This document shows, one piece after another, positions 1 through 25,011 of a stretch of 64,000 nt of DNA; the first letter of the stretch is position 1, and each line of letters begins with the position of its first letter. Location of the stretch: the NCBI GenBank assembly GCA_000002445.1, contig CP000069.1:768001-832000 (forward strand), in the 5' to 3' direction. Source of the stretch: Trypanosoma brucei (Eukaryota). The position numbers and the translations under genes were made by a program. Below the pieces are notes generated by a model. It ran no database searches and was not told the DNA's origin. It was given only the letters and a program-made list of their open reading frames with translations.

Positions 1-2303
1 ATTGTGTGTGTTTGTATGACGCACTCTAGCACGTCGCTCTGTTTTTATTGTTTTTGTTATATTTTTCGTCCTCTCCATATAAATTAAATGAATGAATTAC
101 TTATATTAATATATATTTTAAAAATAAAAATAATAAAAGTAATATATATATATATATAAATATACCATTTGCGCTTTTTTTTGTTTTGCTGCTCTTTTAA
201 CTAGTGGATCACACACCGAGGAATTTGAATCAAAAAGGAGCCACTTCCCGCTGTTCGCACACTCTCAAAGAAGAAAAAAAAATAAATAACAGATAAGCGA
301 AAGAAATTAATTTGATAAGACAGCAACGACAAAAGGGTGTTTACACAAAAAAAAAATAAAATAAGCGCAAGTAAAAGAACAAAGATTTATGTTTTAGAAA
401 AAAAAAGCAAGATGGATGGTGTGTACATATAAGAAATTAAGTTAGGTTAAATTAAAGTGTTACCCTCAATTCCGTTTGCATTTCTGTTCTTTCCTCAAAG
501 GGGGGGGGTGGAAGGAAAAGGAAGGAGAGAAAAAGAAAAGATGTAACATTACATATAAATATAATTATTTACCTATTTATTCATATTTGTGTCTTATTAG
601 TTGAGTCAAAACGAAATTAAAAGAAAATTAAACGAAGTGTTTGTGTTGCAATTCATACTGTACATTAATATGAATAATGTTTACGCTTTTGCATATTATT
701 TTGGTGTGAGTGAGTGAGTGAGTGTGGTGGGAAAGGGTTGCAGTAACACCTGTTGGGGGTTTTTCTTTTTCTTTTTTGTTGTTGTTACAAAATTATTATT
801 ATTATTATTATTTTGTTTCCACCTCCTTTTTTTTTGGTTCTTGCCGTTACGGATTTATTTTTAGCCATACGGATGTTGTGGGAATGGAGGGTGAATGGAA
901 ACAAACGAAGGTGAATAACAACATTTACGTTTATGGGATTTGGTTTAATTTTTTTAATTGTCTTTCTTCTTTTTTTTTTTTGGTTGTGTGCTTTCGCCGT
1001 CTCGTATCATATCAACTTGCGTGTGCCTCGCAATATGACGCATATGTGTTTTCTTTTTCTTTCTTCTTTTTTTTTTTGTAATAATTTCTCACTGGTACCA
1101 CATACGGTTCCGACATTATCAGGAACAACGTTACGGAACTAATTATGTTGATCATCATTTAATTCTTTTTTTTTTGTTGTTGCTCTTGTAGAAATTTTTT
1201 AAAAAAAGGAAAAAAAAGAGAATTTTCGAGACACTTCGTTTTATCTTGTTTTCGTTTTTTGTTTTTTGTTTTTTTTTGTGTTTTTTGTGTTTGTTTGTTT
1301 GCGGCTGCGGTGAGAAGTGACAAAAGCAGCGAAACCGAAACGTTTATGCGGGAAGGACAATATTATCTTTCTTTTTTTCTTTTTTTTATTCAGTAACGGG
1401 AAGGGGCGACAGTCGCTAAGCTCACACGTAAGCTCGTGCAAGAATGGTGGGACAGTTGAATATATTCCATAATAAATAAATATAAAAAAAAGGAAGGAAA
1501 AACACTCGCAATATTATTTCCTTTCTGGTTTTGAATGTATTTTATTTTCTCACCATTGTTTCCCTTCGTTTTTTCTTTGTGTATGTTTTTTTTGAAATAA
1601 AAAAAACACGTTTGACATGATGGAAAGGAAAGATATTTTTTTTTCTTTTCTTCCAATGTGTCCGTCAACTTCATATATTTATACTTATTAAAGTCAGCAT
1701 ATACCTATTGTTATTTATTTTATAAGTATATAAGTATATAAATAAATAAATATATATATGTATGTATGTGTGTGTAATCGTTTATTCATATTTGCTTTAT
1801 GGACCATTTTTTGCAGTTGATTCCCGTGCGTTTTATCCCTCTCTTCTTTTGTTAATTCTTTTTTGTTAATTTTGTTCATCTCCTTATATATTCCATCTTG
1901 AAGAAGCACAACTGTTGTTTGTGTGTTTCCTGTCCTGTGCTGCATATTCGTATGCTACTACGGCTCATGTGTTTTATTTAGTGCGTGAATTCACTTTACA
2001 CACCTAACTGCACTTTGCGATGTTGTAGTCCTTTTTCATCTTCATCTTTATCTTTGTATTGATATTTTGCTTTACTTTTAATTTAATTCCATTCAATTCA
2101 ATTTAATTCTTTTCCTATTTTTTTCTAAAAAAAAAAAATCATCTCATAACTTTTATATCATGCATTCCATCATTTCACCTGTAACTCTTATTACGCTTAG
2201 GTGCAGTGATAGTGGCTCATACTTACAGAACAAATATTAAGTTTGGACCTTAGTTGTAAGGAAGGAAAAAAGAAAAATAAAATAAAAAAATTAAAAAAAC
2301 ATC

Positions 2304-3665: not shown

Positions 3666-5933
3666 ATGAGCGCACCACCACCGCCACCACCACAACCATC
3701 TGGAGGATTTCCCCCGTCATATGCACCGCCTGCTCCTCCAGGCTTTAAAGCACCCCCGATGCCGCCTGGTTTTAAAGCACCTCCGATGCCACCCGGTTTC
3801 AAAATGCCCCCCAGACCGCCAATGCCGCCAGGATTCAAAATGCCTCCCGGTGGGCCGCGTCCACCGGGACCGCCAATGCCACCACATGCTCAACAGGGAT
3901 CATATCCAAATTACCCAACTCCTCCCGGAGCGCCTCCGATGCCACCCGGCGGTCGTTATGCCCCCGCACCGCCGCGACCCCCAAGTGGAGGATCGGATCA
4001 AGAAAATGGACAGGGTTATATGATGCATTCGGGCGCCGTGCACGGACAATATGACGCGTATGCACGAGAGGACTACAATTACGGAGTGCCTCCGGGTCCC
4101 GATTCACGCGGGTATTCGTCATATCATCCCTCACAACAATACCACCAGGGATACTATGGAGCTCCTGCTGCGCACGGTGGCGAAAATCGTGGCAACCGCC
4201 GTGATGAAGAGGCCCGTGAACCGACCAACACCGTGTGGGTGGGGAACCTGGACGTCCAGAGGCATTCGGATGACTTTCTGAGGCAAGAGTTTCGGGAATT
4301 TGGAAGGGTTGTACGCATTGCTAAGGTGCCTGACAAGAGTTATTGTTTTGTGCATTTCCGCTATGTGGAGGAGGCGCGTAACGCCGTTGAGACGCTTAGT
4401 GCGAGGGGCTCATTGGGTGGAGCAAGGTTTAGCTACGGCAAGATGTTTGACTACTCGCAGGATGAAGGGGGCATGCAGCAGGATGGAGGCATGTCAAATC
4501 AAGGAATGCGACCACCTCGACGTCCCCGTGAGGAGGAACGTCACGAACATGAAGAGCGCCGCCGGCGCCCTCGTCGCGATGAGGAACCGATGGAGCCGAC
4601 TAATGTGTTGTGGATTGGGGACCTTCCCCCAACTATTACAAATGAGGAGCTGAATGAGAATTTCAAGGTCTTTGGAACAATTTTAAATATTTCGAGATTA
4701 GACTGTAAGAATATGGCATTTATTCACTTCGAAAATATTGAAAGCTGTACGCAGGCTCTAGACTTAATGCGTGATCAGCTCATTTGTGGCGCCCGTGTTG
4801 CGCTTAATTACGGTCGAGCGCAACGCAATCCTGTCTCCCAGACGACCGGACTCTCACCAGATGGCATCCCACTTAGTGAAACCCCGACAAATGTAATATT
4901 CGTTGGGCAGTTTGCAACAGATGTGACAGAGGAGGATATAGAAGCTTTGTTTGAGCCTTTTGAAGGGTTCATCAATTCCAAGTTTATCCACTCCAGCTGC
5001 ATCGCCTTCGGACATTTCGATACAGTAGATCACGCCCGCGCCGCTCGTGTGGCATTGAACAACACTCTTTTAAAAGGGGCTCCTGCGCGCATTAGTTTCG
5101 GTAAGACAAATCACACACTTACCATGGCTGACCGCATGCGCCGGGGAAGACCAGCACCTCTTGTGGATGGAGTTGAGGTCATCCCTGAGACCGCTGCAGG
5201 TGCGCCGGGCCGTGGCTCGCTTGATGGCGTTAGCGGTGCACTTGTCGCAGGTCCTGGTTTGAGTGGTGCGTCGGAAAATGGAGCAGTGGTGATGATCCCT
5301 GCAATGGGTGCGGCTGTCACTGCCACCTCGCCCCCGCAAGCTCATGCTTCTTTTACGCGTGAGAGACCTGCTCCCGACATGACTTTAGATGCTCGGTTAC
5401 AATCACTTCTAGGTGCCACGTATAATTCCTGCGGAGAGGCGGAGAAGTCGTTAAGTCCGAGTGTTATTCAAACTATATGTGATTTGATCGATGACTGCGT
5501 GGATGAAGGTAGTGAGAAGCGACTGGATGACGCTATCTTTTTATACACTCCACTTAATTCGGCTCATGTGTTCGGCATTCTAGCCAAACGGATGCAAAGT
5601 TTTTTTAACGACGATCCTCACAAGAAACTTTACATTGCGTACGCAGCTACTCGCGTATTGTTGGCAGCGAAAACGGACTACGTTTTCTTTACCAAGGCTG
5701 CCATGAATGCCTACCTTATGGTATTATTTGTAACCAGTCAAGGACAAACACCTGATGGGATGGAGCAACTTGTCGCCATAATTGAAAGTGTGCGTCGACA
5801 CCCCTTCATTGAGAAACAGCGATTGGATGCCGAATATACGGAAATTTTCCGCGGCCAATTGGAGGAAATCCTCGGACGTGCAAAGGAAGAACAGGACCTG
5901 ACGTCTCTCATCACAAAGAAGAGGCGTCGGTAA
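3666..5933 (+). CDS. RNA-binding protein with a Pro-rich N-terminus, three RRM domains and a C-terminal helical domain
   Basis: ATG ORF of 755 aa. The N-terminus has imperfect PPMPPGFK(A/M)P repeats. There are three RNP-type segments: TNTVWVGNLD...YCFVHF, TNVLWIGDLPP...MAFIHF and TNVIFVGQFA...CIAFGHF. The roughly 200 aa C-terminal domain is of unknown type. Confidence 0.8.
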   Translation: MSAPPPPPPQPSGGFPPSYAPPAPPGFKAPPMPPGFKAPPMPPGFKMPPRPPMPPGFKMPPGGPRPPGPPMPPHAQQGSYPNYPTPPGAPPMPPGGRYAPAPPRPPSGGSDQENGQGYMMHSGAVHGQYDAYAREDYNYGVPPGPDSRGYSSYHPSQQYHQGYYGAPAAHGGENRGNRRDEEAREPTNTVWVGNLDVQRHSDDFLRQEFREFGRVVRIAKVPDKSYCFVHFRYVEEARNAVETLSARGSLGGARFSYGKMFDYSQDEGGMQQDGGMSNQGMRPPRRPREEERHEHEERRRRPRRDEEPMEPTNVLWIGDLPPTITNEELNENFKVFGTILNISRLDCKNMAFIHFENIESCTQALDLMRDQLICGARVALNYGRAQRNPVSQTTGLSPDGIPLSETPTNVIFVGQFATDVTEEDIEALFEPFEGFINSKFIHSSCIAFGHFDTVDHARAARVALNNTLLKGAPARISFGKTNHTLTMADRMRRGRPAPLVDGVEVIPETAAGAPGRGSLDGVSGALVAGPGLSGASENGAVVMIPAMGAAVTATSPPQAHASFTRERPAPDMTLDARLQSLLGATYNSCGEAEKSLSPSVIQTICDLIDDCVDEGSEKRLDDAIFLYTPLNSAHVFGILAKRMQSFFNDDPHKKLYIAYAATRVLLAAKTDYVFFTKAAMNAYLMVLFVTSQGQTPDGMEQLVAIIESVRRHPFIEKQRLDAEYTEIFRGQLEEILGRAKEEQDLTSLITKKRRR
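3736..3860 (+). repeat. In-frame imperfect tandem repeats of about 27-36 nt encoding PPMPPGFK(A/M)P in the RRM-protein gene
   Basis: gcacccccgatgccgcctggttttaaa / gcacctccgatgccacccggtttcaaa / atgccccccagaccgccaatgccgccaggattcaaa. On the opposite strand the same region produces a spurious poly-Gly ORF (3629-3838). Confidence 0.8.
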
Positions 5934-6020
5934 ATATGATTGGATTTGATGATTTGGTTGTACTGCTGTTGTGCGGTCATGGAAGTGTTTGAAAATGGGG
6001 GAGGGAAATGAAGAGGAAAA

Positions 6021-6083
6021 GCAAGCAAGCAAACAAACAAACAAACAAACAAACGAACGAACAACAACAACAACAACAACAAA
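6021..6083. repeat. Compound (GCAA)2(ACAA)6(ACGA)2(ACA)n microsatellite
   Basis: GCAAGCAAGCAAACAAACAAACAAACAAACAAACGAACGAACAACAACAACAACAACAACAA. Confidence 0.9.
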
Positions 6084-7698
6084 AACCGAGTGAACAAGAA
6101 TGACGCTGAAGGTATGTGTGTTAGGCGTGTAAAAAGAGTTGATTAGTGAAGAGATAAATTTTTTTAAAAAAGGGAAAATACATACGAAAGAAAGAAAGGA
6201 AGGAAACAAAAAAAAACAAAAAAAGCTGAATGCATGAAGAATGGTATTAAATAAAGATAACGCTTACTAGGAAAACACTTTGACGGAAACTGGGGAGAAT
6301 CGGATACTGAGGAAAAGAAAATGGTGAGCGCAGGTATTGCGTTTGGGAAGGACATCACAAAAAAAGTATGATGACGTGAGTACACTGCGACTGCCGCAAC
6401 GAAGCAGTAAAGTATGTTAAGTGCGGCGATGTTTTCTTTTTCTTTTTCCTTCCGATTATTTTGCGTGAGTTTACTGTACTCTATATATCTAATCCTGTGG
6501 TGCTGCTGTTGTTTTCACGTTGTGTTCTTGTTTTGTCTTTTCTGACGCGCAGACGAACCCTATTGGCAGTAAGGATGGCAAGGCGTGTTGGCGGGTGAAG
6601 ATTTCAAAAAAATAAAATAAAATAATAACAATAATGATTGAATTTTACCATGAAAATACGACACGGTGTGAATGAAGTAGAGAGGAGAATATATTATAAG
6701 TTTGTTCAGGCTATGATTTGTTTTTTTTCTCTTTAATCGTCATTATTACTATGGTATTTGTAAGCAATAAACGTAAGTGTGTTCGTGCGTCTGTTGCAAT
6801 CACACTCTCTGATCAAATATCTTCTGTTCTTTTTTTTTTCCCCCTCACTGGCTTTCCTTCCCATCTCGGCCTTCTTTGTTTTCTTGTGTGGTGTTGCTTA
6901 CCAGCATGCAAACAAATAATAATAATAATGATAACAATAATAATGTTGCGATTACTGACATGTAAACCTGCATACATACAAAAAATACAAAACAAGAAAC
7001 ACATACACATCAAACTAAATTATTTATGATATAAACCAACGTAAAACAAAATATTCAATGAATAACTACATAAATATACTTCTAATATATATATATATAT
7101 GTATAAGCTGTCTCTAGGTTGCCTTCGTTTACACCCTCTTACAGCTCGCGTGTGGATTCGTTTCCTTTGCCTTGTTGATTTGATATCTACTCTGTTAGTA
7201 TTTGCTCCGGTGTCTCTGTGTGCCTGTCTCGCTTCAACAACAACAACAAAATATATCCACATCTTCAGGAACATACCCGCATCTTCTCGTGCACGTGAAT
7301 ATTATTTATGATTGAACACTTGTATTTGCACCTACAAATGCATGTACATTTACATATATTATCGGTCAACTGGGTGCTGTTGCGGTGATGTTCGATGAGA
7401 GTTTTTGAGTAGAGTCGCACTAAAAAAAAAATGCACGGATTTCTCTTCTCTCGCTCATGCTTGATTCCTTCTCATCATTAACTGGCTGCGTTCTTTCCTT
7501 CATTCCTTCATATATTCAGTGTTGATTGGCCATTGTTTTTCTTTGTGGTTCCCGTACCTGATGCCTGGGGGTGGATCATCATTACCAGTTGTGTAATTAC
7601 AGGTGTGTTTTCAATTTCGTCATGCACTGAAGCCCGGATTTACTTTTTGCTGAAGGGTACGAAATATCCTTATGTGGTGTCTACGCTCGCTAAAACTA

Positions 7699-7773
7699 AA
7701 AAAAAAAGAAAGGAAGGAAGGAAGGAAGGAAGGAAGGAAGGAGGAGGAAAAGAAAAAAAAAGAGGAATAAACA
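7699..7773. repeat. Polypurine tract containing (GGAA)7
   Basis: AAAAAAAAAGAAAGGAAGGAAGGAAGGAAGGAAGGAAGGAGGAGGAAAAGAAAAAAAAAGAGG. The + strand is pure purine for about 75 nt. Confidence 0.9.
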
Positions 7774-8294
7774 GCAACGGCGGAGGATCCAGAAAAAATT
7801 GTTTTGGGACATGACGAGCAAATGTGGTGCGCGGACGTTCATTTCTGAGGGAACTTATTGGATTTTTGTGCCGCATGAGTTACGTTAAGGCGTGTGTTGG
7901 ATGGGGAGATGCTTTTCAGTTCCTGGAGTTTACCGGTGGCGAATTCTAAAAGAGACTCGTCGGTTGTAGCATTTGGACATAGGTAATGCAGTTGTCATGT
8001 AACTTCATGCCTTCTCATTACCCATTTAAAAAAAAAATGAATGAGAATAAACAATGTTTTCCGGAAGCTGAAGAAAAAGAGTGGAGGGGTAAAGTGGGTA
8101 ACTGGAAGTCAAAAGCAACGTGTTTAGTGAGTTTTTTTTTTGTGGTAGTGGTGGTGGATTATTTCATCAGTTGCAAGACCGTCGCTGTTATTTTTGTGGT
8201 TTGAAAATTTCTCGTTCCGTTATTTGAAACTTCATGTGATGGTTTGGGAAACTGCTCCTCTTCCTGTAGGTGATAATTATTCTTTTAATTTTCC

Positions 8295-8345
8295 TTTTTT
8301 TTTTCTTTTTTTTTTGGGGGGGGGGGAGGGGGACGAGGAGAGGCT
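8295..8345. repeat. T-tract (about 21 nt) directly abutting a G11 homopolymer and a GGGGG run
   Basis: TTTTTTTTTTCTTTTTTTTTTTGGGGGGGGGGGAGGGGGACGAGGAG. Confidence 0.9.
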
Positions 8346-10364
8346 TGGTTTGCCAAGTGTATGTGTGCACTAAACAATATTTGCGCTGCATTTAATGATT
8401 GAAGAAGTTGAGAAATGCGGTTAATTTGCAAAGAAAGAGTGAGGGAAAGGGGAGATTGTTTTTTTTTTGTGAATCTTCACAATGGGGGACACGACCTCGT
8501 TTCTTTTTTTTTTTTTGTGCTGGTTTGAGGTTTATGGTTCGTCGACATTTTAAATATATATATATATATATATGTATTCTCCTTGTGCTGAACGCTTTGA
8601 CTAATTTTTCTTTGGTTTTTTAAAAACCATGTGAGTCTTACGGACTCCAATCTGCTTTACCTCTTGTTACTTGAGGCGCCTTTGTATGACATTGTTGGAA
8701 CTATATAAATATATATATATTTATGATTTTTTTTTTTTGTAGAGTCAATGGTTTTCGTTTCTGATAATTGATTTTGGTGGAAGGGCATAATAATCAAAGA
8801 GATGTCCGTGGAATTTGAAGAAGTACAAAAAGATAACCCGGTTAGTCAAGTGTTGTACGACCGTTCCCGTTTTATGCTCTGAGGCTTTTTGTTCTAAAAG
8901 GAACTAAAAAAATAACAATAATAATATAACAATAATCAGAAGCGTACGCAACCTTAACGAATGTTCCACCGACGTGCTTCGCTGAGTATTTTTATACATT
9001 TGTGAATGCACGTGTAGTGGAGGATGGGGAGGGGGTTTAATACTTCAATTCCGTTTCCCCCTTTGTTTGGTGAAGGTGCAGCGCCGTAAAATTATAAATA
9101 CTTTCTAGGGTTAAAATGGTATTATAACTTCCCTTTATTAATCCTGAGAGTGTATTGTAAGAATATCATCTGCCGCTAATGGATCCCTGTAATTCTATGA
9201 TTGTTCGCTAAGCCTGTAATTGCATTGGACAAGTAAAAACAGGATTGTGTACACAAACCGTCTAGTTGTGTTACTTTATTAAAGGGATCTATATTTTTTC
9301 CCCTTGAAAACCAGCGTTATGAACGTTTTACGACTTAGGATTACATAGTGTTAATTATGTACGGATTGCCCTATATAAACACACTTTCTTCCCCAATATT
9401 ATACAGCTATCTGCAAGGTGGTGTAGGTGTGTTAGAAAAAAGTACGTTTTAAGATATCAAAGATGTTGATGCATACATGATTAATCTTCTCTGAGGTAGA
9501 GTGGGTAACAAATATCAGGACATTTATGGAATTTGTTTGTAAAAAGGGGCTGACGCCTTTTTCTTTCGACTTTCGGCCAGCACTGAACCCGAGAACTGCA
9601 TGCCATGCGGATGATATGTTGACAACCGATGTTGAAAACCCTAATAGTGTTTACTTTGACAGAGAACGTAAAATGGATCTGGGATCGCTGAGGCAATTGA
9701 TGGTAAGTTTTGTGTTGCCTAGAAACTCAGATTTCTTAAAAGCTTTTTTAAGTGGCGGGAGAAGCACTGCGTGCGGAATGAGCTGCGTTAGAAGCCGGAG
9801 AATGAGCACTTTATTATCGGTTTGAAAGTGCATGTGCACAACTCTCCGACGAGAATGTTCGAGTGCAGCACGAATCAAATGAGCATCTGGGTTGGATGCA
9901 ACAACAGCTCACATATATGCAAGAAACAAAAGCACAGCAAGCAGCGGAAATTGGAGGTCTACGTACAATCGATTTCTACGATACGGCAAAAATTGGTCAT
10001 AACTGAAGGTAAGAGAGATAAGACAGGGGAGTGTCAGGAACAACAGAGCAAATCGGAAACAGGGAAGGCCAAACATATAGATGAATGTGCATGGAAAGGC
10101 TGTTTCTCATCGTAAGAAGTAACTTAACCTTTTTCACATAGGGTTTGATTTCGAGGGATCCAGGAATTACGGGCAAATGCATTGGGCTTTCCTGGAGGAG
10201 TAAGCACTGAAGAAAAAATTCGAACTTTTGATGGAATGATGAAATATCTCCAAGGAAGGACTCCTGAATAACTGTTATCAGCATATCAGTTAGTGTTTCC
10301 CACGCCAACAATATCGCCGGGACAGGTATATACCGAGGCATAAAAAAACTTCGCATCATAGGTA

Positions 10365-10700
10365 TTGCGCCTGCACCAAGACGGCATATCGAAGGAACGC
10401 CTCCAACTAGGAAAACAATTGTATGATAAGCTGTGCACAGTACAAACGGTAAAAGACTACCCGGGGCTGAGGTTTAAAGACATAAAGGAAACTATCGAAT
10501 TCCATCTCAAAAAGGGTGATATTTACATTCAGGCCACTATGAAGGCGAGACGACAACAACAACAACAAATCGGTGTCCCTCCGAGAAGGTCTCAATGTTT
10601 CACATGCGGACAATTGGGGCATTACAGCAATACTTGTGGGGTGTTCAAACATAAACTGAACACACGTCAAAAAAGAGACATTCGGCCCCAGAAGCAATGA
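10365..10700 (+). pseudogene. gag-like fragment with a CCHC zinc knuckle, part of the retroelement
   Basis: The 111 aa ORF ends ...RRSQCFTCGQLGHYSNTCGVFKHK. This is a C-X2-C-X4-H-X4-C knuckle preceded by a basic, Q-rich segment. Confidence 0.5.
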
Positions 10701-12109
10701 ATTTGGGGGCCGTTAATATTTCCCTACCCATACTCCACCACAAGGGAAAAACTAACACAACGGAGAAAGAGTCATACAGTGGAGGACGATAACAATTACC
10801 ACCCCTCGTCGACAAATGAGTTACCCGACACGGACGGGAATAGTACGACCCTTACGCGCAGAAAAGTCGACAGCAGCTCAACGTATGAGAGGAGCCTTTC
10901 AAGGGATCTGGGAAATGTCAAATGGAAATCAACAACACGCAACAAAGGTGTTCTTGGTAAACGACGTCACGGTTATTCTAGCTTCTGCACACGATACGTA
11001 TATTATGGCACTGGCTTCAGAAGCAAACAAAGTAGCAAAAAGGATGTGAACACGCACAACTTGGGAACAGAAAGGACCCATAATCTAAGGATTCTATGCT
11101 TTCGCAGACAAACACGGACTACCGGCTGTCGAAACGACAATCCCCTTGTTTATTGTAAGTTTGCAACTGGCAAAGAGCAGCACCATACAGTATACAAGGA
11201 CACTACTATCATCACTAGCCGCAGAGCATACACCAGCGCGAATGTATTTGTAGCCGGACTATGCAGAATGACAGGGGGAAATACCATAAAACAGGCTTGA
11301 CCCATGTTGCGTTGGGAGCTCGATCTCGCGTGTGACACTTTAACACTAGAGCGGGATCGAGTGGCTTTAAAGCTGACCTGAATCGCAGCCAGCAGATGGG
11401 GAGAAATAGCACAGCTACAAAAGGAGAATTTTGTGCTCCATCCACAAGACAAAAAAGATGATGCCATAGTGGTAAACTGAGGAGCACTCCCGAAGATATT
11501 CAAAAGCGACACACACAGAACCGCGAAGTATGTGGTGATAAGCGGAGAAGATGCAAGAAGGATCCGAAGGGTAATCAGGGAAATGGAGGGTAATGAAAAG
11601 CTCACATCTATTACAACAAAAGGAATGAAAGAAATACTACGCTCACTCGGGATGACTGCACATTCAATAAAGAGAGGGAAATTAGCACACGTAGAATTGG
11701 CATGAGTGGTGTAAAAACACAAGCCCTCGACTTAAGATTATTAACACAATTAGGAAAGCACGCAGACCCTCAGAAGCTTTCACGAAGTACGGTAAGACGC
11801 TATCTGTGTCGATGGAACACCACCATCAACAAGTCGGAGCGGTTAACCACGTTGATGTAAAACATCTGATAGGGAGAAAAGCAGATATGCCATGCAATAT
11901 GCCGGAATCCTCACGCCGAGCAGTGTTAGCTTTATTGACAAGAAAAAATTATCGAGGGCACATCATCATTCGACGTTCGCAAGGAACGCGGGCAGTGTCA
12001 GATGAAGAAGAGAGACATTACTTCTTCAGGAAGTAAATGTGGGTACATTGTCTTTGGAATTGGTACGAAGACGAATGTAGGATGAGGCACAGCAACGGTT
12101 TGACAATGT

Positions 12110-13400
12110 ATGGAACTTGATGATTGCCACGGAACGAAATTCGAAAGAAAGAGACAGGGAGTCTCATTTGCGGATTGCGGAAAAAGACGCCGATTTATTG
12201 CCTGGTCCAAGGTAAAAAATGCCAGAAATGATTACGAGGTTGGAGTCCTGTTGGGACACATATCCCTATATCTAAGTGCAGTTTATGATGAATCCGCAGG
12301 GTTGTTTGATTTAAAGGCTTCTTTTTTTCCGGATGAACAAGCCACAAAAGACATTCGAGCGAGTTTCCGCTGTTGCACAGAAAAGTGGGGAACTGGTAGA
12401 ATTGAATCGATTCCCAATGGGTTAATAAATGAAGCCATGAAATTGTACAGACATCACGAGAGTTTTGGCAGGAGACTCAGAGGTAGTGAAACCACAATAT
12501 GCGGCCGCCAACGAATCGAGGGTTCACACGTAGATCGATAACATCCGTATCAGTAAACCACACAAAACGGTCAAAGAATGGGGGGACCACATTGCTAAAA
12601 ACATGAAAGAATGCGGGGCAACGGTTGCCGAGCAACAAAAAATGGTCACACGATACGAATTTATCGGGGTTTTATTTGACCATGACAAACAGACGGTTTT
12701 GTTGAATGCAAAGACAACACGGCGGATTCGAGAATCGGCTCCACTCGAGACAACGACCATAAAACAGATGGAGAGAGTTGTATTCTGCATGATATACGCG
12801 GCTGGTATTGGGGGGGGGAGCCATTTTTCTCTTACTATATTTTCTTTAAAATGATGCGTCGGCGTTTATCTCGCCTAAATAGGAAATTGGTGAACCATTC
12901 CGATCGGGATTAGCTGCCAAAAAATGCATTAAAGTTGGCGAAGCAGTGGATGAGCGAGTTGTTGAAAAATGTAGCAGTGGTTCCACCACAGGTTCATCCC
13001 TCCACGGCCACACTGGTGACAGATACCTCCGTGCAGGGATGGGGAGGGATGTTATTTCGAGATAAAGGAGAGATTATAATAGCAGGAGGCTCCTGGGAAA
13101 CGGCACCTCACATGATATCATAAGGAGAAGTGCGAGCGATTCAATTCGCATTGTTAGCGATTCGGGGGCGTTTCGATGGGCCATTGCAAATATACGTGGA
13201 TAACACCACCGTAATGCATATTATGAAGGAAGACGACGCGCATTCAAGCGCCCTAGTGCGATAGGCATCTGTAAAAAACAGGATATTACGACAGGAACAG
13301 ATAAATGCCACATGGTGTTACGTACATTCAGGGGTAAATCCAACCGATGGGATGTCTCGAGGGATACCTGTCAGGGGACAGGACTTGGCGATGGGGTGGA
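12110..13400 (+). pseudogene. Frameshifted RT/RNase H pol remnant of the retroelement
   Basis: The RT C-terminal 'EFIGVLFD...K..ai...P' segment lies in ORF 12603-12854. The RNase H motif TDTSVQGWGG is in ORF 12935-13123. The terminal HSGVNPTDGMSRG motif sits about 13.32 kb in another frame, after a stop. Several frame changes and stops separate these pieces. Confidence 0.5.
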
Positions 13401-13782
13401 ACATGTGGAGGAGAGCGCGGGAGGAGGTTTTAAAGACGCTTTCAGCTCTTTCATATCGTTAGTAAATTATCGTTCATAAATCGTATTTGCGTGGGATGAG
13501 GATGAAGGAACACAACCGGGCATTTAAGGATAAATAATTATTTTTTATATCTTTCTTATCGGTAATAAAGGGAAGGTAATGCCTAAACTATTCCTCTTTT
13601 TACTTTCTTATGTCTTTCTTCTCTCCAAAATATACATTTTTTAATCTAAAGGAAAAAGGGGAAGGGGAACGTGTCGGGTTTATCGTAAGCGGTTTTGAAT
13701 TCTGATCACTAGCTGTTGGTAAGAGTTCGGAAAGGGAAACTTGAATTGTTTTTTATTACATTAAAGTGAAGGCCCACGGTCG

Positions 13783-14712
13783 ATGCCACGCCATTTACGC
13801 TCGTTTTTTTGGGTATTGGTGATTGCCATCAGTCATTGTTCTTTCTTACAGCTGACGACACCGGTAGCAGGTGCATCACAGGGGGAAGCAAATGTTGACT
13901 ACGATGCCATTTTGTTAGAGCATATGATGGCACAAACTTTCACAGTCAGTGTTTTCACGGAGCGATACGGCGTATTCAATGCAAGCCTTGTTCTTTCAGC
14001 TTCCTCTAATTTCCCTGAACTCATTCACGGTGAGCTCATTCCCACTGGAACACAGAGGTTAGAAACGAAGGAGCAGCGGGGTTTGGAACATTTTTCACAC
14101 AACCGTTCGATGCTTGGAGTCACGCCGCCACAGCAGGTTGCTAATGCCCACCCCTCTCTGTTAATCATAAACATTAAAATGGATTATTCTGGGGCATCGG
14201 CAGGAACCTTTAGTGCCTGGAGTCTCCCAGCAGCGGATCGAGAATTACAAACTCGTTTGACGACACTAGATGAGAAAGAAATAAATCCAACGGTTTCAGC
14301 CAGTTTTTCCTTTCTCCCTGTCGTGACCGCTGCAATTCCCTCTTCACTGAGCGATATCCAACTTGCTCCACGCATGGCGAGTGGGACAGTCTCAATGGAG
14401 GATGGGAAGAAAGGAACCTTTACACTTAACTTTCTCTCGGACCATGAGTTTTCTCTAATAGTGAGATTAGAGGGTGATACTTCGTCTTTTGATAACATTT
14501 GGGCGCACGGGTACGCAAAACCAAATGATGTCTTATTTCCTCGTCGTCCCCCGTATAAACCCCCGGTTTGGCTCATTTGGCTGATGTCAGGTGCATGGTT
14601 ATCGGTTGTCTTGTTTCAAGTTATTAGTTATTGTTATTCTAACGATCATTCTGTGCAACCGAAGCAAATCGTCCGTGTGGCACCACCCGCCAAGGGCAAG
14701 AAGGTCAACTGA
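13783..14712 (+). CDS. Hypothetical type-I membrane protein with a signal peptide and a C-terminal TM helix
   Basis: ATG ORF of 309 aa. The N-terminus has a hydrophobic signal-like segment FFWVLVIAISHCSFLQL. There is a C-terminal TM helix WLIWLMSGAWLSVVLFQVISY followed by a basic tail. No recognisable family. Confidence 0.6.
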   Translation: MPRHLRSFFWVLVIAISHCSFLQLTTPVAGASQGEANVDYDAILLEHMMAQTFTVSVFTERYGVFNASLVLSASSNFPELIHGELIPTGTQRLETKEQRGLEHFSHNRSMLGVTPPQQVANAHPSLLIINIKMDYSGASAGTFSAWSLPAADRELQTRLTTLDEKEINPTVSASFSFLPVVTAAIPSSLSDIQLAPRMASGTVSMEDGKKGTFTLNFLSDHEFSLIVRLEGDTSSFDNIWAHGYAKPNDVLFPRRPPYKPPVWLIWLMSGAWLSVVLFQVISYCYSNDHSVQPKQIVRVAPPAKGKKVN

Positions 14713-23691: not shown

Positions 23692-25011
23692 ATGTGGTTC
23701 AGCCGCTTTTCGCTATCGCTGGCAAGCACAGATGCTGGTGAGAAGTTACTGCGGAGCATTCGTGGCCGCGACATTACTTTGCGAGTCTCCACAAAGGACG
23801 GTAACGCACGCATCGTTTTTGCATCCACCACCAATTTACTCCGTGAAACGATGCGGCGACACAAACTGCTAACGCGAATGAAGGGTCAAACACCTTTCCT
23901 TGAGCTGGTTGGTACGCATTTAACCTTTACAAATATACTAGCTGCACTGCAGGAGGGCGAGGAACGCGTCGCTACACGTCTGAGTGCGAATGAGGGGACA
24001 ATTGTGACTGAGTCGCTTGCTATCGGTGAGTGCCGGTGTTATGTTGGTGGTCACAACGGTACCACGCTGGAGGAAGAGCCCCACTTCCCATTGAAGGTTG
24101 ACCGCTTTCTATATGGTCAGTCCCAACCCTTTTCGTCAATTACAGCCGCGTCTTTGACGCAGCTCATAGACCGCGACTATAACGCAACGGTTAGCTCCTC
24201 CGAGGGCTTTTGTAGTACCGCGCAAACTCCGGAAACAGCGGTGCCCCTGCTGGGTCTTGGAATGTTGTCACCAGAGGTTGTGGATGCTTATTATCGTAGG
24301 AATATCACACTGCATGGCCACACTTTTTTTCGTCAATCGGAGGGTTCGGTAGCGGCATTGTGGTGCTGTGCGTATCTCGACGACCCTTCGCTCCTGGAGG
24401 CGTTTGCTTTGTACTCGGAAGCGAGTGCCGCAAGCGAAAGCCCTGAGGCAGTCGATCGAGTTGACGAGATGATGCGTAAGACGGCTTGCTCATGCGGTGT
24501 TCTTGTTCAGCCGGTTGTGGCCGGGCGCGTGGTGGAAGAAAAAATTCATCTGCTACAACGCCTACTGGTCCGTGCATCGATCGTGCAACCTGAAATATTT
24601 AGCGTTCTGAAGGAAAGGGGGGTGCATGAAGGTTTAGCTTGTCAAGACTCAATCGCATTGGTTACAGGCGACCACGAAGGCGCTTATGAGGTAGCCAAAG
24701 CGGCGCGCCAATTTACACAAGATCCGTCCGTTTCAGCCCCAGTGGTTGAGAAAGTGCGAGAGGGATTGGGTTTGGATAAGGGCGAGCGTTTCTTTATCGA
24801 TCAAGCGTCTGTAGTGCGAAACGGAATTGATTATTTTTGTCGATGTTCCAAAAATAATTTTCTACGGGCGCTTGTGGCGCTCCCTGAGGAGCAGCTTTCG
24901 TCTCTTATGGAAGAAACTAGCTTTCGCTGTACGTTTTGCGCGAAAGAGCATGTGCTGCAACCCGAAGATTGGAGCAAACTGTTGCGCGACCGTACTTCCT
25001 TTAAAAAATAA
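23692..25011 (+). CDS. Hsp33-family redox-regulated chaperone (HslO-like)
   Basis: ATG ORF of 439 aa. The C-terminus YFCRCSKNNFLRALVALPEEQLSSLMEETSFRCTFCAKEHVL is collinear with the E. coli Hsp33 zinc centre [43 protein letters not shown], so CxC...CxxC is preserved. An extra N-terminal segment is present. Confidence 0.8.
   Translation: MWFSRFSLSLASTDAGEKLLRSIRGRDITLRVSTKDGNARIVFASTTNLLRETMRRHKLLTRMKGQTPFLELVGTHLTFTNILAALQEGEERVATRLSANEGTIVTESLAIGECRCYVGGHNGTTLEEEPHFPLKVDRFLYGQSQPFSSITAASLTQLIDRDYNATVSSSEGFCSTAQTPETAVPLLGLGMLSPEVVDAYYRRNITLHGHTFFRQSEGSVAALWCCAYLDDPSLLEAFALYSEASAASESPEAVDRVDEMMRKTACSCGVLVQPVVAGRVVEEKIHLLQRLLVRASIVQPEIFSVLKERGVHEGLACQDSIALVTGDHEGAYEVAKAARQFTQDPSVSAPVVEKVREGLGLDKGERFFIDQASVVRNGIDYFCRCSKNNFLRALVALPEEQLSSLMEETSFRCTFCAKEHVLQPEDWSKLLRDRTSFKK

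What the first reader, a model, noticed from the sequence alone, without database searches (positions are those of the whole stretch)
9480..13450. Degenerate LTR/DIRS-class retroelement, possibly VIPER-like, inside a Pol II gene array
Eight or more consecutive + strand ORF fragments in shifting frames carry retroelement motifs in a fixed order.

- **gag:** a CCHC knuckle, CFTCGQLGHYSNTC.
- **Tyrosine recombinase, Box-I-like (weak):** SRRAVLALLTR.
- **RT thumb:** EFIGVLFD..K...RI...P, the FLG motif typical of LTR, DIRS and retroviral RTs. Non-LTR elements of the ingi or L1Tc type lack it.
- **RNase H:** TDTSVQGWGG ... WCYVHSGVNPTDGMSRG.

The order gag, then YR, then RT and RNase H matches the tyrosine-recombinase (DIRS-like) VIPER elements described in trypanosomes. 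The copy is heavily decayed by frameshifts and stops. It sits in an ORF-poor gap of about 7.8 kb and is oriented with the transcription unit. It also contains a G9 run at 12810.
Basis: partly seen in the sequence, partly recalled or inferred. Interest (0 to 1): 0.6.

Follow-up and report, generated by a model that had tools for sequence, protein, structure and literature searches.

The report
Dead VIPER retrotransposon in Trypanosoma brucei
This is a decayed, non-functional copy of VIPER, a known tyrosine-recombinase retrotransposon of trypanosomes, lying between two genes on Trypanosoma brucei chromosome 6; this same copy was very probably already listed in a published survey, so it is ordinary.

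Summary
The window is Trypanosoma brucei brucei TREU927, on a 1.62 Mb contig inferred to be chromosome 6. Window 9463-13462 (+) is a 4.0 kb relic of a VIPER retroelement. It has three parts in the canonical order:

- **ORF1, gag-like:** 9463-10700, with a CCHC knuckle.
- **ORF2, tyrosine recombinase (YR):** about 10960-11860.
- **ORF3, RT/RNase H:** 11797-13462, overlapping ORF2.

All three are collinear with ORFs of VIPER copies of T. theileri published by Ribeiro et al. 2019 (tblastn E 1e-15 to 1e-62; 34-70% amino-acid identity). The YR core is 68% identical to T. theileri VIPER and 42% to T. cruzi VIPER. It shows no real similarity to TATE or Ngaro.

The copy is dead. It carries about 21 in-frame stops, at least 8 frameshifts and a roughly 32-codon deletion in RT. 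No terminal or split direct repeats remain.

One sub-claim is wrong. "SRRAVLALLTR" is not YR Box I; it lies in the N-terminus of ORF3. The real Box I is ASRWGEIAQL at 11388-11417.

The orthologous T. b. gambiense copy matches an entry in Ribeiro's table of degenerate VIPER copies, which also lists a single TREU927 chromosome 6 copy. This element is therefore already known.

One side observation: the relic differs from its orthologues in short, highly divergent patches. That suggests ectopic gene conversion or an assembly patchwork.

The parts
9463..10700 (+). ORF1 relic: the gag-like protein of VIPER. Its start codon is conserved (MLMHT* against T. theileri MLSTTR). The CCHC zinc knuckle is at 10596-10637. 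The stop after RPQKQ at 10698-10700 is also conserved. The relic carries about 8 in-frame stops and 2 frameshifts, near 9745 and between 9961 and 10140.
   Evidence: tblastn with the T. theileri gag-like ORF (L002:8603-9865) and with P0003. BLASTP of the C-terminal 183 aa gave E 2e-41 at 39% identity, aligned to the last residue. Pfam zf-CCHC scored E 3.8e-4, 20.9 bits against a cut-off of 20.8.
10960..11860 (+). ORF2 relic: tyrosine recombinase. It aligns to residues 27-319 of the 319-aa T. theileri VIPER YR (P0018), and the stop after LTTLM is conserved. Motifs: Box I ASRWGEIAQL at 11388-11417, LPKIFKSD at 11487-11510, AHSIKRG at 11658-11678, and the Tyr motif STVRRYL at 11786-11806. It carries 5 in-frame stops and 2 frameshifts, near 11245 and 11705-11725.
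   Evidence: tblastn with P0018 gave 56-70% identity and E 1e-33 to 1e-59. The protein search gave E 5.5e-101. Core identity is 68.5% to T. theileri VIPER and 42.1% to T. cruzi VIPER, with scores of only 30-33 to TATE.
11797..13462 (+). ORF3 relic: reverse transcriptase plus RNase H. It overlaps ORF2 by about 60 nt in another frame.

- **RT motifs:** LFDLKASFF at 12302-12328, FPMG** at 12411-12422, IDNIRI at 12534-12551 (the family's W-I-D-N version of YxDD), and EFIGVLFD at 12657-12680.
- **RNase H motifs:** LVTDTSVQGWGG at 13013-13048, GEVRAIQFA at 13124-13150, YVDNTTV at 13193-13213, and NPTDGMSRG at 13337-13363.

The stop is at 13460-13462. The relic carries 8 in-frame stops, 4 frameshifts (12012, about 12185, 12381, 12810) and a roughly 32-codon deletion (P0001 aa 38-69).
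   Evidence: tblastn with P0001, P0003 and the L002 RT ORF gave 44-59% identity and E down to 5e-62.
12810..12818 (+). A G9 homopolymer at the exact site of the frameshift between the RT and RNase H segments. It is G10 in T. b. gambiense and T. b. equiperdum, where the two segments stay in frame.
   Evidence: Sequence read, three-way alignment, and frame change between HSPs 12381-12842 and 12815-13423.
11911..11943 (+). It lies in the poorly conserved N-terminal region of ORF3, after the ORF2 stop codon, and is not a recombinase motif.
   Evidence: In the P0003 and ThRT alignments this string falls in a poorly matching stretch that spans a 5-residue gap.

Best explanation
Window 9463-13462 (+) is a dead, internally decayed copy of the VIPER retrotransposon. 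VIPER belongs to the VIPER-like subgroup of the DIRS order of tyrosine-recombinase retroelements. The copy lies in the intergenic region between an RRM-protein gene (3666-5933) and a conserved hypothetical gene (13783-14712), in a + strand polycistronic unit of a T. brucei brucei TREU927 contig inferred to be chromosome 6.

**How the family is thought to work (established model, not tested here).** An intact VIPER is transcribed. ORF1 (gag-like, CCHC) binds the RNA. ORF3 (RT/RNase H) copies it into DNA. ORF2 (tyrosine recombinase) inserts a presumably circular DNA intermediate by site-specific recombination, without target-site duplications.

**What this copy can do (shown).** It can do none of that. 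All three ORFs are broken by about 21 stops and at least 8 frameshifts, part of RT is deleted, and terminal repeats are gone.

**Inferred.** It is passively co-transcribed as part of the Pol II polycistron and has no coding function. Its only likely activity is as a substrate for homologous recombination or gene conversion with other VIPER relics.
For: **Organism and locus**
- Flanking ORFs 13783-14712 and 23692-25011 are exact matches to XP_845377 and XP_845384 of T. b. brucei TREU927, on a 1,618,915 bp contig.

**Homology and collinearity**
- The stitched RT/RH hits T. theileri P0001, P0002 and P0003 at E 5.5e-100 to 4e-86.
- The stitched YR hits T. theileri P0018 at E 5.5e-101 (59% identity, 82% coverage), and also T. 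vivax, T. melophagium and T. grayi ORFs.
- tblastn maps gag-like, YR and RT/RH in that order, and nowhere else in the window.
- Start and stop codons are conserved where tested: the ORF1 start, and the ORF1 and ORF2 stops.

**Link to published VIPER copies**
- P0018 is the 319-aa YR ORF of copy NBCO01000001.1_184039_200881.
- P0003 is the 1013-aa ORF of NBCO01000001.1_125834_143357.
- P0001 is the 484-aa ORF of NBCO01000028.1.
- All three appear in the VIPER tables and alignments of Ribeiro et al. 2019.

**VIPER rather than TATE**
- YR core alignment scores are 388 (T. theileri VIPER), 220 (T. cruzi VIPER), 30-33 (TATE) and 24 (Ngaro).
- Ribeiro's Additional file 1 reports 0 TATE hits in TREU927, against 36 YR and 58 RT/RH VIPER hits.

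**RT/RH type**
- Relatives hit Pfam RVT_1 and RT_RNaseH; P0035 scores 51.4 bits and P0007 27.8 bits against a cut-off of 24.8.
- The paper's CDD annotation of P0003 is RNase_HI_RT_DIRS1, E 1.9e-11.

**Decay and composition**
- Stops and frameshifts are read directly from the HSPs.
- Strong positive AT skew (+0.26 to +0.28) occurs only across 10-12 kb, typical of an A-rich retroelement sense strand.

**Already catalogued**
- The T. b. gambiense orthologue lies at FN554969.1:546,596-550,610.
- That is Ribeiro's entry 'Tbg972_06_540613_556837, degenerated' once flanks of about 6 kb are removed.
- The same table lists one TREU927 chromosome 6 copy, 'Tb927_06_v5.1_771232_787690, degenerated'.
Against: - Generic profiles do not recognise the window's own translations. 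Pfam finds only zf-CCHC at threshold and a weak RVT_3. PDB sequence searches find nothing credible for the RT/RH (only chance-level matches, E above 1) and nothing for the YR family profile.
- Even the intact T. theileri YR reaches only E 0.069 against Pfam Phage_integrase. An AlphaFold model of it was unusable, with pLDDT 36. The enzyme assignments therefore rest on homology to published VIPER ORFs and on motif conservation, not on an independent fold test.
- No split direct repeats or other terminal repeats were found, so the true ends of the insertion are undefined.
- I could not confirm the TREU927 coordinates against Ribeiro's entry directly, because the sequence file is truncated in the held copy.
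Confidence: 0.95

Rival explanations
1. It is a relic of TATE, the other tyrosine-recombinase retroelement of kinetoplastids, rather than VIPER.
For: TATE has the same gag-like, YR, RT/RH layout and forms one 'VIPER-like' clade with VIPER in RT trees (PMC6681497).
Against: The YR core aligns to T. theileri TATE sequences with scores of only 30-33, against 220-388 for VIPER sequences. Ribeiro's tblastn found no TATE hits in any T. brucei genome. The best hits are ORFs of copies catalogued as VIPER.
Confidence: 0.01
2. It is a degenerate non-LTR element (ingi, DIRE or RIME type), and the LTR-like motifs are coincidental.
For: ingi and DIRE relics are the commonest retroelement remnants in T. brucei, with 1314 INGI against 76 VIPER copies (PMC12278014 Table 1).
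Against: There is a YR ORF between the gag-like ORF and RT, and no endonuclease-type similarity. Relatives match Pfam RT_RNaseH. The element is collinear with VIPER ORFs at E down to 1e-62.
Confidence: 0.01
3. It is a domesticated or still-coding VIPER-derived gene, like the VIPER-derived gene reported in Leishmania (Viannia) species.
For: An ORF inside the orthologous relic is annotated in T. b. gambiense as TbgDal_VI2310, 204 aa. The relic is retained at the same site in three T. brucei subspecies.
Against: The annotated Tbg ORF is mostly in a frame that does not encode the YR. Every domain is interrupted by stops and frameshifts. Lesions differ between subspecies, for example G9 against G10 and stops gained or lost. 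The relic is the most divergent segment of the locus, at 95.0% identity against 98.5-99.7% in the flanks.
Confidence: 0.02
4. The motif matches are chance similarities in a long 3' UTR or intergenic region.
For: Pfam on the raw fragments gives almost nothing.
Against: E-values reach 1e-100 against a database of 5.8 billion proteins, and the alignment is collinear over 4 kb.
Confidence: 0

Closest known systems
VIPER (vestigial interposed retroelement) of Trypanosoma. First described in T. cruzi (Vazquez et al. 2000), extended to T. brucei and T. vivax (Lorenzi et al. 2006), and surveyed in 45 kinetoplastid genomes by Ribeiro et al. 2019 (PMC6681497).
   Same: The three ORFs occur in the same order. 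The gag-like ORF has a CH-box. The YR core has ASRW(G/S)EIA, TAHSIKRGAL and TVRYL motifs. RT has a WIDN motif C and (F/I)GV. RNase H has TDAS..GWG, DNTT and NPAD..SR motifs. ORF2 and ORF3 overlap. YR core identity is 42% to T. cruzi Dm28c VIPER and 68% to T. theileri VIPER. As the literature reports for all T. brucei copies, this one is degenerate.
   Different: It differs only in being a decayed individual copy. It has no split direct repeats (A1 ... B1-A2-B2), about 21 stops, at least 8 frameshifts and a deletion in RT.
T. theileri VIPER copy NBCO01000001.1_184039_200881 (L002). It encodes gag-like 421 aa, YR 319 aa and RT/RH 657 aa.
   Same: It is the best available intact template. Identity is 37-41% in gag-like, 56-70% in YR and 46-54% in RT. 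Positions are conserved for the ORF1 start, the ORF1 stop and the ORF2 stop.
   Different: It sits at a different, non-syntenic genomic site, flanked by myosin, aminotransferase and JAB genes, and in opposite orientation to its neighbours. Its ORFs are open.
TATE (telomere-associated transposable element) of Leishmania (Viannia) and other trypanosomatids.
   Same: It has the same overall architecture and is the sister group in RT trees.
   Different: The YR has no meaningful similarity (scores 30-33). TATE is absent from T. brucei.
DIRS1, Ngaro and PAT tyrosine-recombinase retrotransposons.
   Same: They use a tyrosine recombinase instead of a DDE integrase, have an RT followed by an LTR-type RNase H, and lack a protease.
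   Different: There is no detectable sequence similarity of the YR to Ngaro (score 24). The terminal repeat architectures differ. VIPER-like elements are a separate subgroup confined to kinetoplastids and, from the hits here, diplonemids.
ingi, RIME and DIRE non-LTR retroposons of T. brucei.
   Same: They are retroelement relics interspersed in T. brucei polycistronic units.
   Different: They have a single ORF with an AP endonuclease, no YR and a poly(A) tail. None of this is seen here.

Membership tests
VIPER (VIPER-like subgroup of DIRS-order retrotransposons) | ORF1: a gag-like protein, with a CX2CX4HX4C CH-box in Trypanosoma copies. | tested here: met
   CFTCGQLGHYSNTC lies at 10596-10637. 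Pfam zf-CCHC gives E 3.8e-4. The relic is 39% identical to the T. theileri VIPER gag-like C-terminus at E 2e-41, aligned to the shared stop. The N-terminus aligns from the shared ATG at 9463.
VIPER (VIPER-like subgroup of DIRS-order retrotransposons) | ORF2: a tyrosine recombinase homologous to published VIPER YRs. | tested here: met
   tblastn with P0018, the YR of a published T. theileri VIPER copy, gives E 1e-33 to 1e-59 and 56-70% identity. Core identity is 68.5% to T. theileri VIPER and 42.1% to T. cruzi Dm28c VIPER. TATE and Ngaro score at noise level.
VIPER (VIPER-like subgroup of DIRS-order retrotransposons) | ORF3: RT plus RNase H, overlapping ORF2. | tested here: met
   ORF3 homology starts at 11797, and the ORF2 stop is at 11858-11860. 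RT/RH is 44-59% identical to T. theileri VIPER ORFs at E down to 5e-62.
VIPER (VIPER-like subgroup of DIRS-order retrotransposons) | Split direct repeats: A1 at the 5' end and B1-A2-B2 at the 3' end. In T. cruzi the SIRE element corresponds to A2 plus B2. | tested here: not met
   The repeat finder on 5900-14000 found only low-complexity families and no repeat pair bracketing the element. This is expected for a decayed copy. Ribeiro et al. could identify SDRs only in copies from a few species with potentially encoding elements (T. cruzi, C. fasciculata, one B. saltans copy, and an incomplete set in T. theileri). SIRE sequence itself was not available to test.
VIPER (VIPER-like subgroup of DIRS-order retrotransposons) | Insertion without target-site duplication. 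| not testable with these tools
   The element ends are undefined, and no empty orthologous site was available.
Tyrosine recombinase superfamily (Pfam Phage_integrase / CDD DNA_BRE_C) | The catalytic R ... H-x-x-R ... Y signature, and a significant match to the generic family profile or fold. | tested here: inconclusive
   Candidate residues are conserved with published VIPER YR alignments: R in ASRWGE, H and R in AHSIKRG, and Y in VRRYL. However, Pfam Phage_integrase reaches only E 0.069 for the intact T. theileri ORF and nothing for the window. A PDB profile search was empty. The AlphaFold model was unusable. Ribeiro et al. report DNA_BRE_C hits for other VIPER copies but 'no conserved domain' for this T. 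theileri ORF.
LTR/DIRS-type RT-RNase H, as opposed to the non-LTR ingi/L1Tc type | An RNase H domain of the RT_RNaseH type directly following RT, with no AP endonuclease. | tested here: met
   Relatives that align to the window match Pfam RT_RNaseH above its cut-off: P0007 aligns at E 2e-33 and scores 27.8 bits, and P0035 scores 51.4 bits. The CDD hit RNase_HI_RT_DIRS1 is reported for P0003. The window's own decayed sequence reaches only RVT_3 at E 0.045-0.19.
TATE | A TATE-type YR, with AARAGD ... SIRKGA ... TGHT ... RYLG motifs. | tested here: not met
   Alignment scores are 30-33, against 220-388 for VIPER.

The most novel reading that the evidence does not exclude
The relic may not be decaying in isolation. 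It may be exchanging sequence with other VIPER relics in the T. brucei genome by short-tract ectopic gene conversion.

In a three-way comparison, 189 of 214 substitutions inside the relic are unique to TREU927. They fall in about a dozen patches of 23-163 bp that are 8-31% divergent. Identical stretches of up to 335 bp separate them. The flanks are 98.5-99.7% identical.

If real, dispersed dead VIPER copies would be a measurable read-out of non-allelic homologous recombination in chromosome cores of T. brucei. The evidence equally allows a patchwork assembly of a repeat in the Sanger-era TREU927 reference, or a divergent TREU927 haplotype.
Probability: 0.35. Interest if true: 0.3.

Novelty: already known. 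Interest (0 to 1): 0.1.

Why it matters
It matters little beyond annotation. The result confirms that a motif-level reading of raw sequence correctly spotted a VIPER relic, and it gives exact ORF boundaries, motif coordinates and a lesion map for this copy. It explains the 7.85 kb ORF-poor gap in the transcription unit and the spurious 204-aa gene model TbgDal_VI2310 in T. b. gambiense.

VIPER relics in T. brucei have been known since 2006 and were catalogued in 2019 and 2025, with 76 copies reported. The orthologue of this copy is in the 2019 table.

The only point worth a follow-up is the patchy, lineage-specific divergence confined to the relic. It could report ectopic gene conversion among dispersed repeats.

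Tried and rejected
- **Pfam on raw ORF fragments and on frameshift-corrected translations.** Only zf-CCHC reached threshold. Generic profiles are too weak for this family.
- **PDB sequence and profile searches.** I searched with the stitched RT/RH, a YR family alignment (A1) and an RT/RH family alignment (A2). The two profile searches found nothing, and the stitched RT/RH gave only chance-level matches with E above 1.
- **AlphaFold2 of the intact T. theileri YR with an 8-sequence alignment.** Mean pLDDT was 35.8, so no fold search was attempted.
- **Search for terminal, split direct or inverted repeats across 5900-14000.** Only low-complexity matches were found. Tandem repeats were limited to microsatellites.
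- **Rfam scan of 5900-13800 at E up to 0.1.** No RNA family was found.
- **Other content in the upstream 3.5 kb of the gap (5934-9462).** There are only short low-complexity ORFs, with no second element.
- **Synteny with the T. theileri copy.** Rejected, because the flanking genes differ.
- **Centromere association.** Rejected. The chromosome 6 centromeric array lies between Tb927.6.180 and Tb927.6.190 (PMC1868937), whereas this locus is near gene number 2310 and has no strand switch.
- **Polarising the TREU927-unique substitutions against T. theileri residues.** The result was 31 against 26. I judged it uninformative, because three taxa give no root.
- **Exact look-up of the TREU927 flanking gene for annotated context.** It was not on record. 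The T. b. gambiense and T. b. equiperdum loci were used instead.

Full report
**1. Where the window comes from.** Two flanking ORFs, 13783-14712 and 23692-25011, are exact matches to XP_845377 and XP_845384 of Trypanosoma brucei brucei TREU927. They lie on a contig of 1,618,915 bp, which I infer to be chromosome 6. All 17 ORFs of at least 200 aa in the window are on the + strand, so this is one polycistronic Pol II unit. Between the RRM-protein gene (3666-5933) and the next gene (13783-14712) there is a 7.85 kb gap with no long ORF. The finding sits in its downstream half.

- CFTCGQLGHYSNTC at 10596-10637
- SRRAVLALLTR at 11911-11943
- EFIGVLFD at 12657-12680
- TDTSVQGWGG at 13019-13048
- WCYVHSGVNPTDGMSRG at 13313-13363

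The region consists of many short stop-bounded fragments in shifting frames. The G9 run is at 12810-12818. The + strand has a strong positive AT skew (+0.26 and +0.28) across 10-12 kb, unlike most of the window. That fits the A-rich sense strand of a retroelement.

**3. What it is.** Pfam on the raw fragments recognised only the zinc knuckle (E 3.8e-4, just above the curated cut-off) and a weak RVT_3.

Searching the large protein collection with stitched translations was decisive:

- The RT/RNase H part hit three T. theileri proteins at E 5.5e-100 to 4e-86, and Diplonema papillatum proteins at 1e-15 to 1e-21.
- The segment between gag and RT hit a 319-aa T. theileri ORF (P0018) at E 5.5e-101, with 59% identity over 82% of the query. 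It also hit T. vivax, T. melophagium and T. grayi ORFs.

tblastn of these proteins against the whole 64 kb window hits only this locus, and collinearly:

| ORF | Window coordinates |
|---|---|
| gag-like | 9463-10700 |
| Tyrosine recombinase (YR) | 10960-11860 |
| RT/RNase H | 11797-13462 |

Details of gene structure are conserved:

- The ORF1 start is shared (MLMHT... against T. theileri MLSTTR...).
- The ORF1 end is shared (RPQKQ-stop against RPRKQ-stop).
- The ORF2 end is shared (LTTLM-stop against LTSLM-stop).
- ORF2 and ORF3 overlap by about 60 nt.

**4. Link to the named family.** The T. theileri hits are not anonymous. The locus encoding P0018 (L002, NBCO01000001.1:182,036-202,995) carries called genes of 421, 319 and 316 aa. 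It is the copy 'NBCO01000001.1_184039_200881' (gag-like 421 aa with CH-box, YR 319 aa, RT/RH 657 aa) in the VIPER tables of Ribeiro et al. 2019 (PMC6681497, Additional files 2 and 3). The P0018 sequence appears in their VIPER YR alignments (Additional files 13 and 18). P0003 (1013 aa) and P0001 (484 aa) are the ORFs of two further listed VIPER copies.

I aligned the window's YR core to sequences taken from those published alignments:

| Reference | Identity | Alignment score |
|---|---|---|
| T. theileri VIPER | 68.5% | 388 |
| T. cruzi Dm28c VIPER | 42.1% | 220 |
| A third VIPER sequence | 39% | 142 |
| T. theileri TATE | noise | 30-33 |
| Ngaro | noise | 24 |

The same paper found 0 gag, 36 YR and 58 RT/RH VIPER tblastn hits in TREU927, and no TATE hits. 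A 2025 survey counts 76 VIPER copies in T. brucei (PMC12278014).

An exhaustive HMMER search with the intact T. theileri RT/RH found 2048 representative relatives, 307 of them at E up to 1e-30. Those with names come from T. melophagium, Angomonas, Leptomonas and Diplonema. Where Pfam sees anything in them, it is RVT_1 and the LTR-type RT_RNaseH domain.

SRRAVLALLTR (11911-11943) lies after the ORF2 stop codon (11858-11860). It is in the poorly conserved N-terminus of ORF3, and in the T. theileri alignments it falls in a poorly matching stretch that spans a 5-residue gap. It is not recombinase Box I.

The real YR motifs, each conserved with published VIPER YRs, are:

- ASRWGEIAQL at 11388-11417 (Box I arginine)
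- LPKIFKSD at 11487-11510
- AHSIKRG at 11658-11678
- STVRRYL at 11786-11806 (tyrosine)

The other assignments hold: the CCHC knuckle, EFIGVLFD in RT, and the RNase H D/E/D and NP(A/T)D..SR motifs. The RT 'YxDD' box of this family reads W-I-D-N. Here it is T*IDNIRI at 12534-12551.

**6. State of the copy.** Reading the HSPs gives the following lesions:

| ORF | In-frame stops | Frameshifts | Other |
|---|---|---|---|
| ORF1 | about 8 (the first is at codon 6) | 2 | |
| ORF2 | 5 | 2 | |
| ORF3 | 8 | 4 | loss of about 32 codons of the RT N-terminal region (P0001 aa 38-69) |

The last ORF3 frameshift falls exactly in the G9 run. In T. b. gambiense and T. b. equiperdum the run is G10, and RT and RNase H stay in frame. 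The G9 run is therefore either a TREU927-specific homopolymer slip or a sequencing error.

No split direct repeats, LTRs or inverted repeats bracket the element. No Rfam family matches anywhere in 5900-13800, and there is no second element in the upstream part of the gap. The copy is not autonomous and cannot encode any of its proteins.

**7. Is this exact copy already known?** The orthologous relic is present at the same site in two other subspecies:

- T. b. gambiense DAL972 (L001), between the same RRM and 309-aa genes.
- T. b. equiperdum IVM-t1 (L003).

In the short-read T. equiperdum OVI assembly, the contig breaks 687 bp upstream of the flanking gene.

The gambiense orthologue maps to FN554969.1:546,596-550,610. 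Ribeiro's Additional file 2 lists 'Tbg972_06_540613_556837: degenerated, degenerated, degenerated'. With their flanks of about 6 kb removed, that is 546.6-550.8 kb, the same element. For TREU927 the table lists one chromosome 6 copy, 'Tb927_06_v5.1_771232_787690', also degenerated in all three ORFs.

I could not check the TREU927 coordinates directly, because the sequence supplement is truncated in the held copy. The identification is very probable but not proven.

The 204-aa gene model TbgDal_VI2310 (P0026) is an ORF called inside the relic, mostly in a non-YR frame.

**8. How it works.**

- *Established for the family, not tested here:* an intact VIPER would use its gag-like CCHC protein, its RT/RNase H and its tyrosine recombinase to copy its RNA into DNA. 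It would then integrate that DNA by site-specific recombination, without target-site duplication.
- *Shown here:* this copy has lost all three functions.
- *Inferred:* the relic lies in sense orientation inside a polycistron, so it is probably co-transcribed and discarded during trans-splicing and polyadenylation of its neighbours. Whether it yields siRNAs could not be tested.

**9. Rivals.**

- TATE, ingi/DIRE and chance are excluded.
- A domesticated gene is excluded by the lesion load, by lineage-specific lesions, and because the relic is the fastest-diverging segment of the locus.
- Centromere association is excluded. The chromosome 6 centromeric array lies between Tb927.6.180 and Tb927.6.190 (PMC1868937).

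**10. A side observation.** Between TREU927 and T. b. gambiense, identity varies sharply across the locus:

| Segment | Identity |
|---|---|
| Flanking CDSs and intergenic DNA | 98.5-99.7% |
| Whole relic | 95.0% |
| YR part of the relic | 91.2% |

In the three-way alignment, 189 of 214 substitutions within 9487-13423 are TREU927-unique. They are clustered in about a dozen patches of 23-163 bp that are 8-31% divergent, for example 10536-10631, 10987-11103, 11593-11652, 11679-11841 and 13118-13181. Difference-free stretches separate them, such as 12078-12413.

A uniform neutral process does not produce this pattern. The likely causes are short-tract gene conversion from paralogous VIPER relics, a divergent haplotype shaped by such conversion, or patchwork assembly of a dispersed repeat. 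I could not discriminate between them, because no other T. brucei VIPER copies were accessible.

**11. Verdict.** The element is an ordinary, already catalogued, dead VIPER copy. Novelty: already known. Interest: low.

Noticed in passing
window 9487-13423, compared with L001 (about 8700-12660) and L003 (about 5690-9640): The VIPER relic is much more divergent between TREU927 and T. b. gambiense or T. b. equiperdum than its flanks: 95.0% identity overall and 91.2% in the YR part, against 98.5-99.7%. Of 214 substitutions, 189 are TREU927-unique. They cluster in patches of 23-163 bp that are 8-31% divergent, separated by identical stretches. This suggests ectopic gene conversion among VIPER relics, or a patchwork assembly.
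   Followed up: partly
window 12810-12818: The G-run is G9 in TREU927 but G10 in T. b. gambiense and T. b. equiperdum. The RT to RNase H frameshift at this site is therefore specific to the TREU927 sequence. It is either a homopolymer slip or a sequencing error.
   Followed up: yes
L001 10001-10615 (T. b. gambiense FN554969.1), orthologous to about window 10770-11380: The annotated gene TbgDal_VI2310 (204 aa, 'hypothetical protein') is an ORF called inside the VIPER relic, mostly in a frame that does not encode the recombinase. It is almost certainly a spurious gene model.
   Followed up: partly
P0018, P0019 (T. theileri) and P0001, P0031, P0180-P0182 (T. theileri, Leptomonas pyrrhocoris): Public names for VIPER ORFs are misleading. 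YR ORFs are labelled 'trans-sialidase'. RT/RH ORFs are labelled 'target of rapamycin (TOR) kinase 1' in NCBI and UniRef.
   Followed up: no
P0004-P0006, P0035 (Diplonema papillatum): Diplonemid proteins of 1100-1200 aa align to both the YR segment (window 10966-11693) and the RT/RH segment (12185-13372). VIPER-like YR and RT/RH therefore appear fused in one ORF in Diplonema, outside Kinetoplastida.
   Followed up: no
L004 (T. equiperdum OVI, CZPT02001150.1), position 1: The short-read contig starts only 687 bp upstream of the 309-aa gene, just downstream of where the VIPER relic would lie. The repeat probably broke that assembly.
   Followed up: no
window 1-2300 and 6000-9000: These are long AT-rich stretches (30-40% GC) of low-complexity intergenic sequence, with poly-T, (CAAA)n, (AAGG)n and (TA)n tracts. 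No ORFs, tandem arrays or (in 5900-9000) RNA families were detected.
   Followed up: partly
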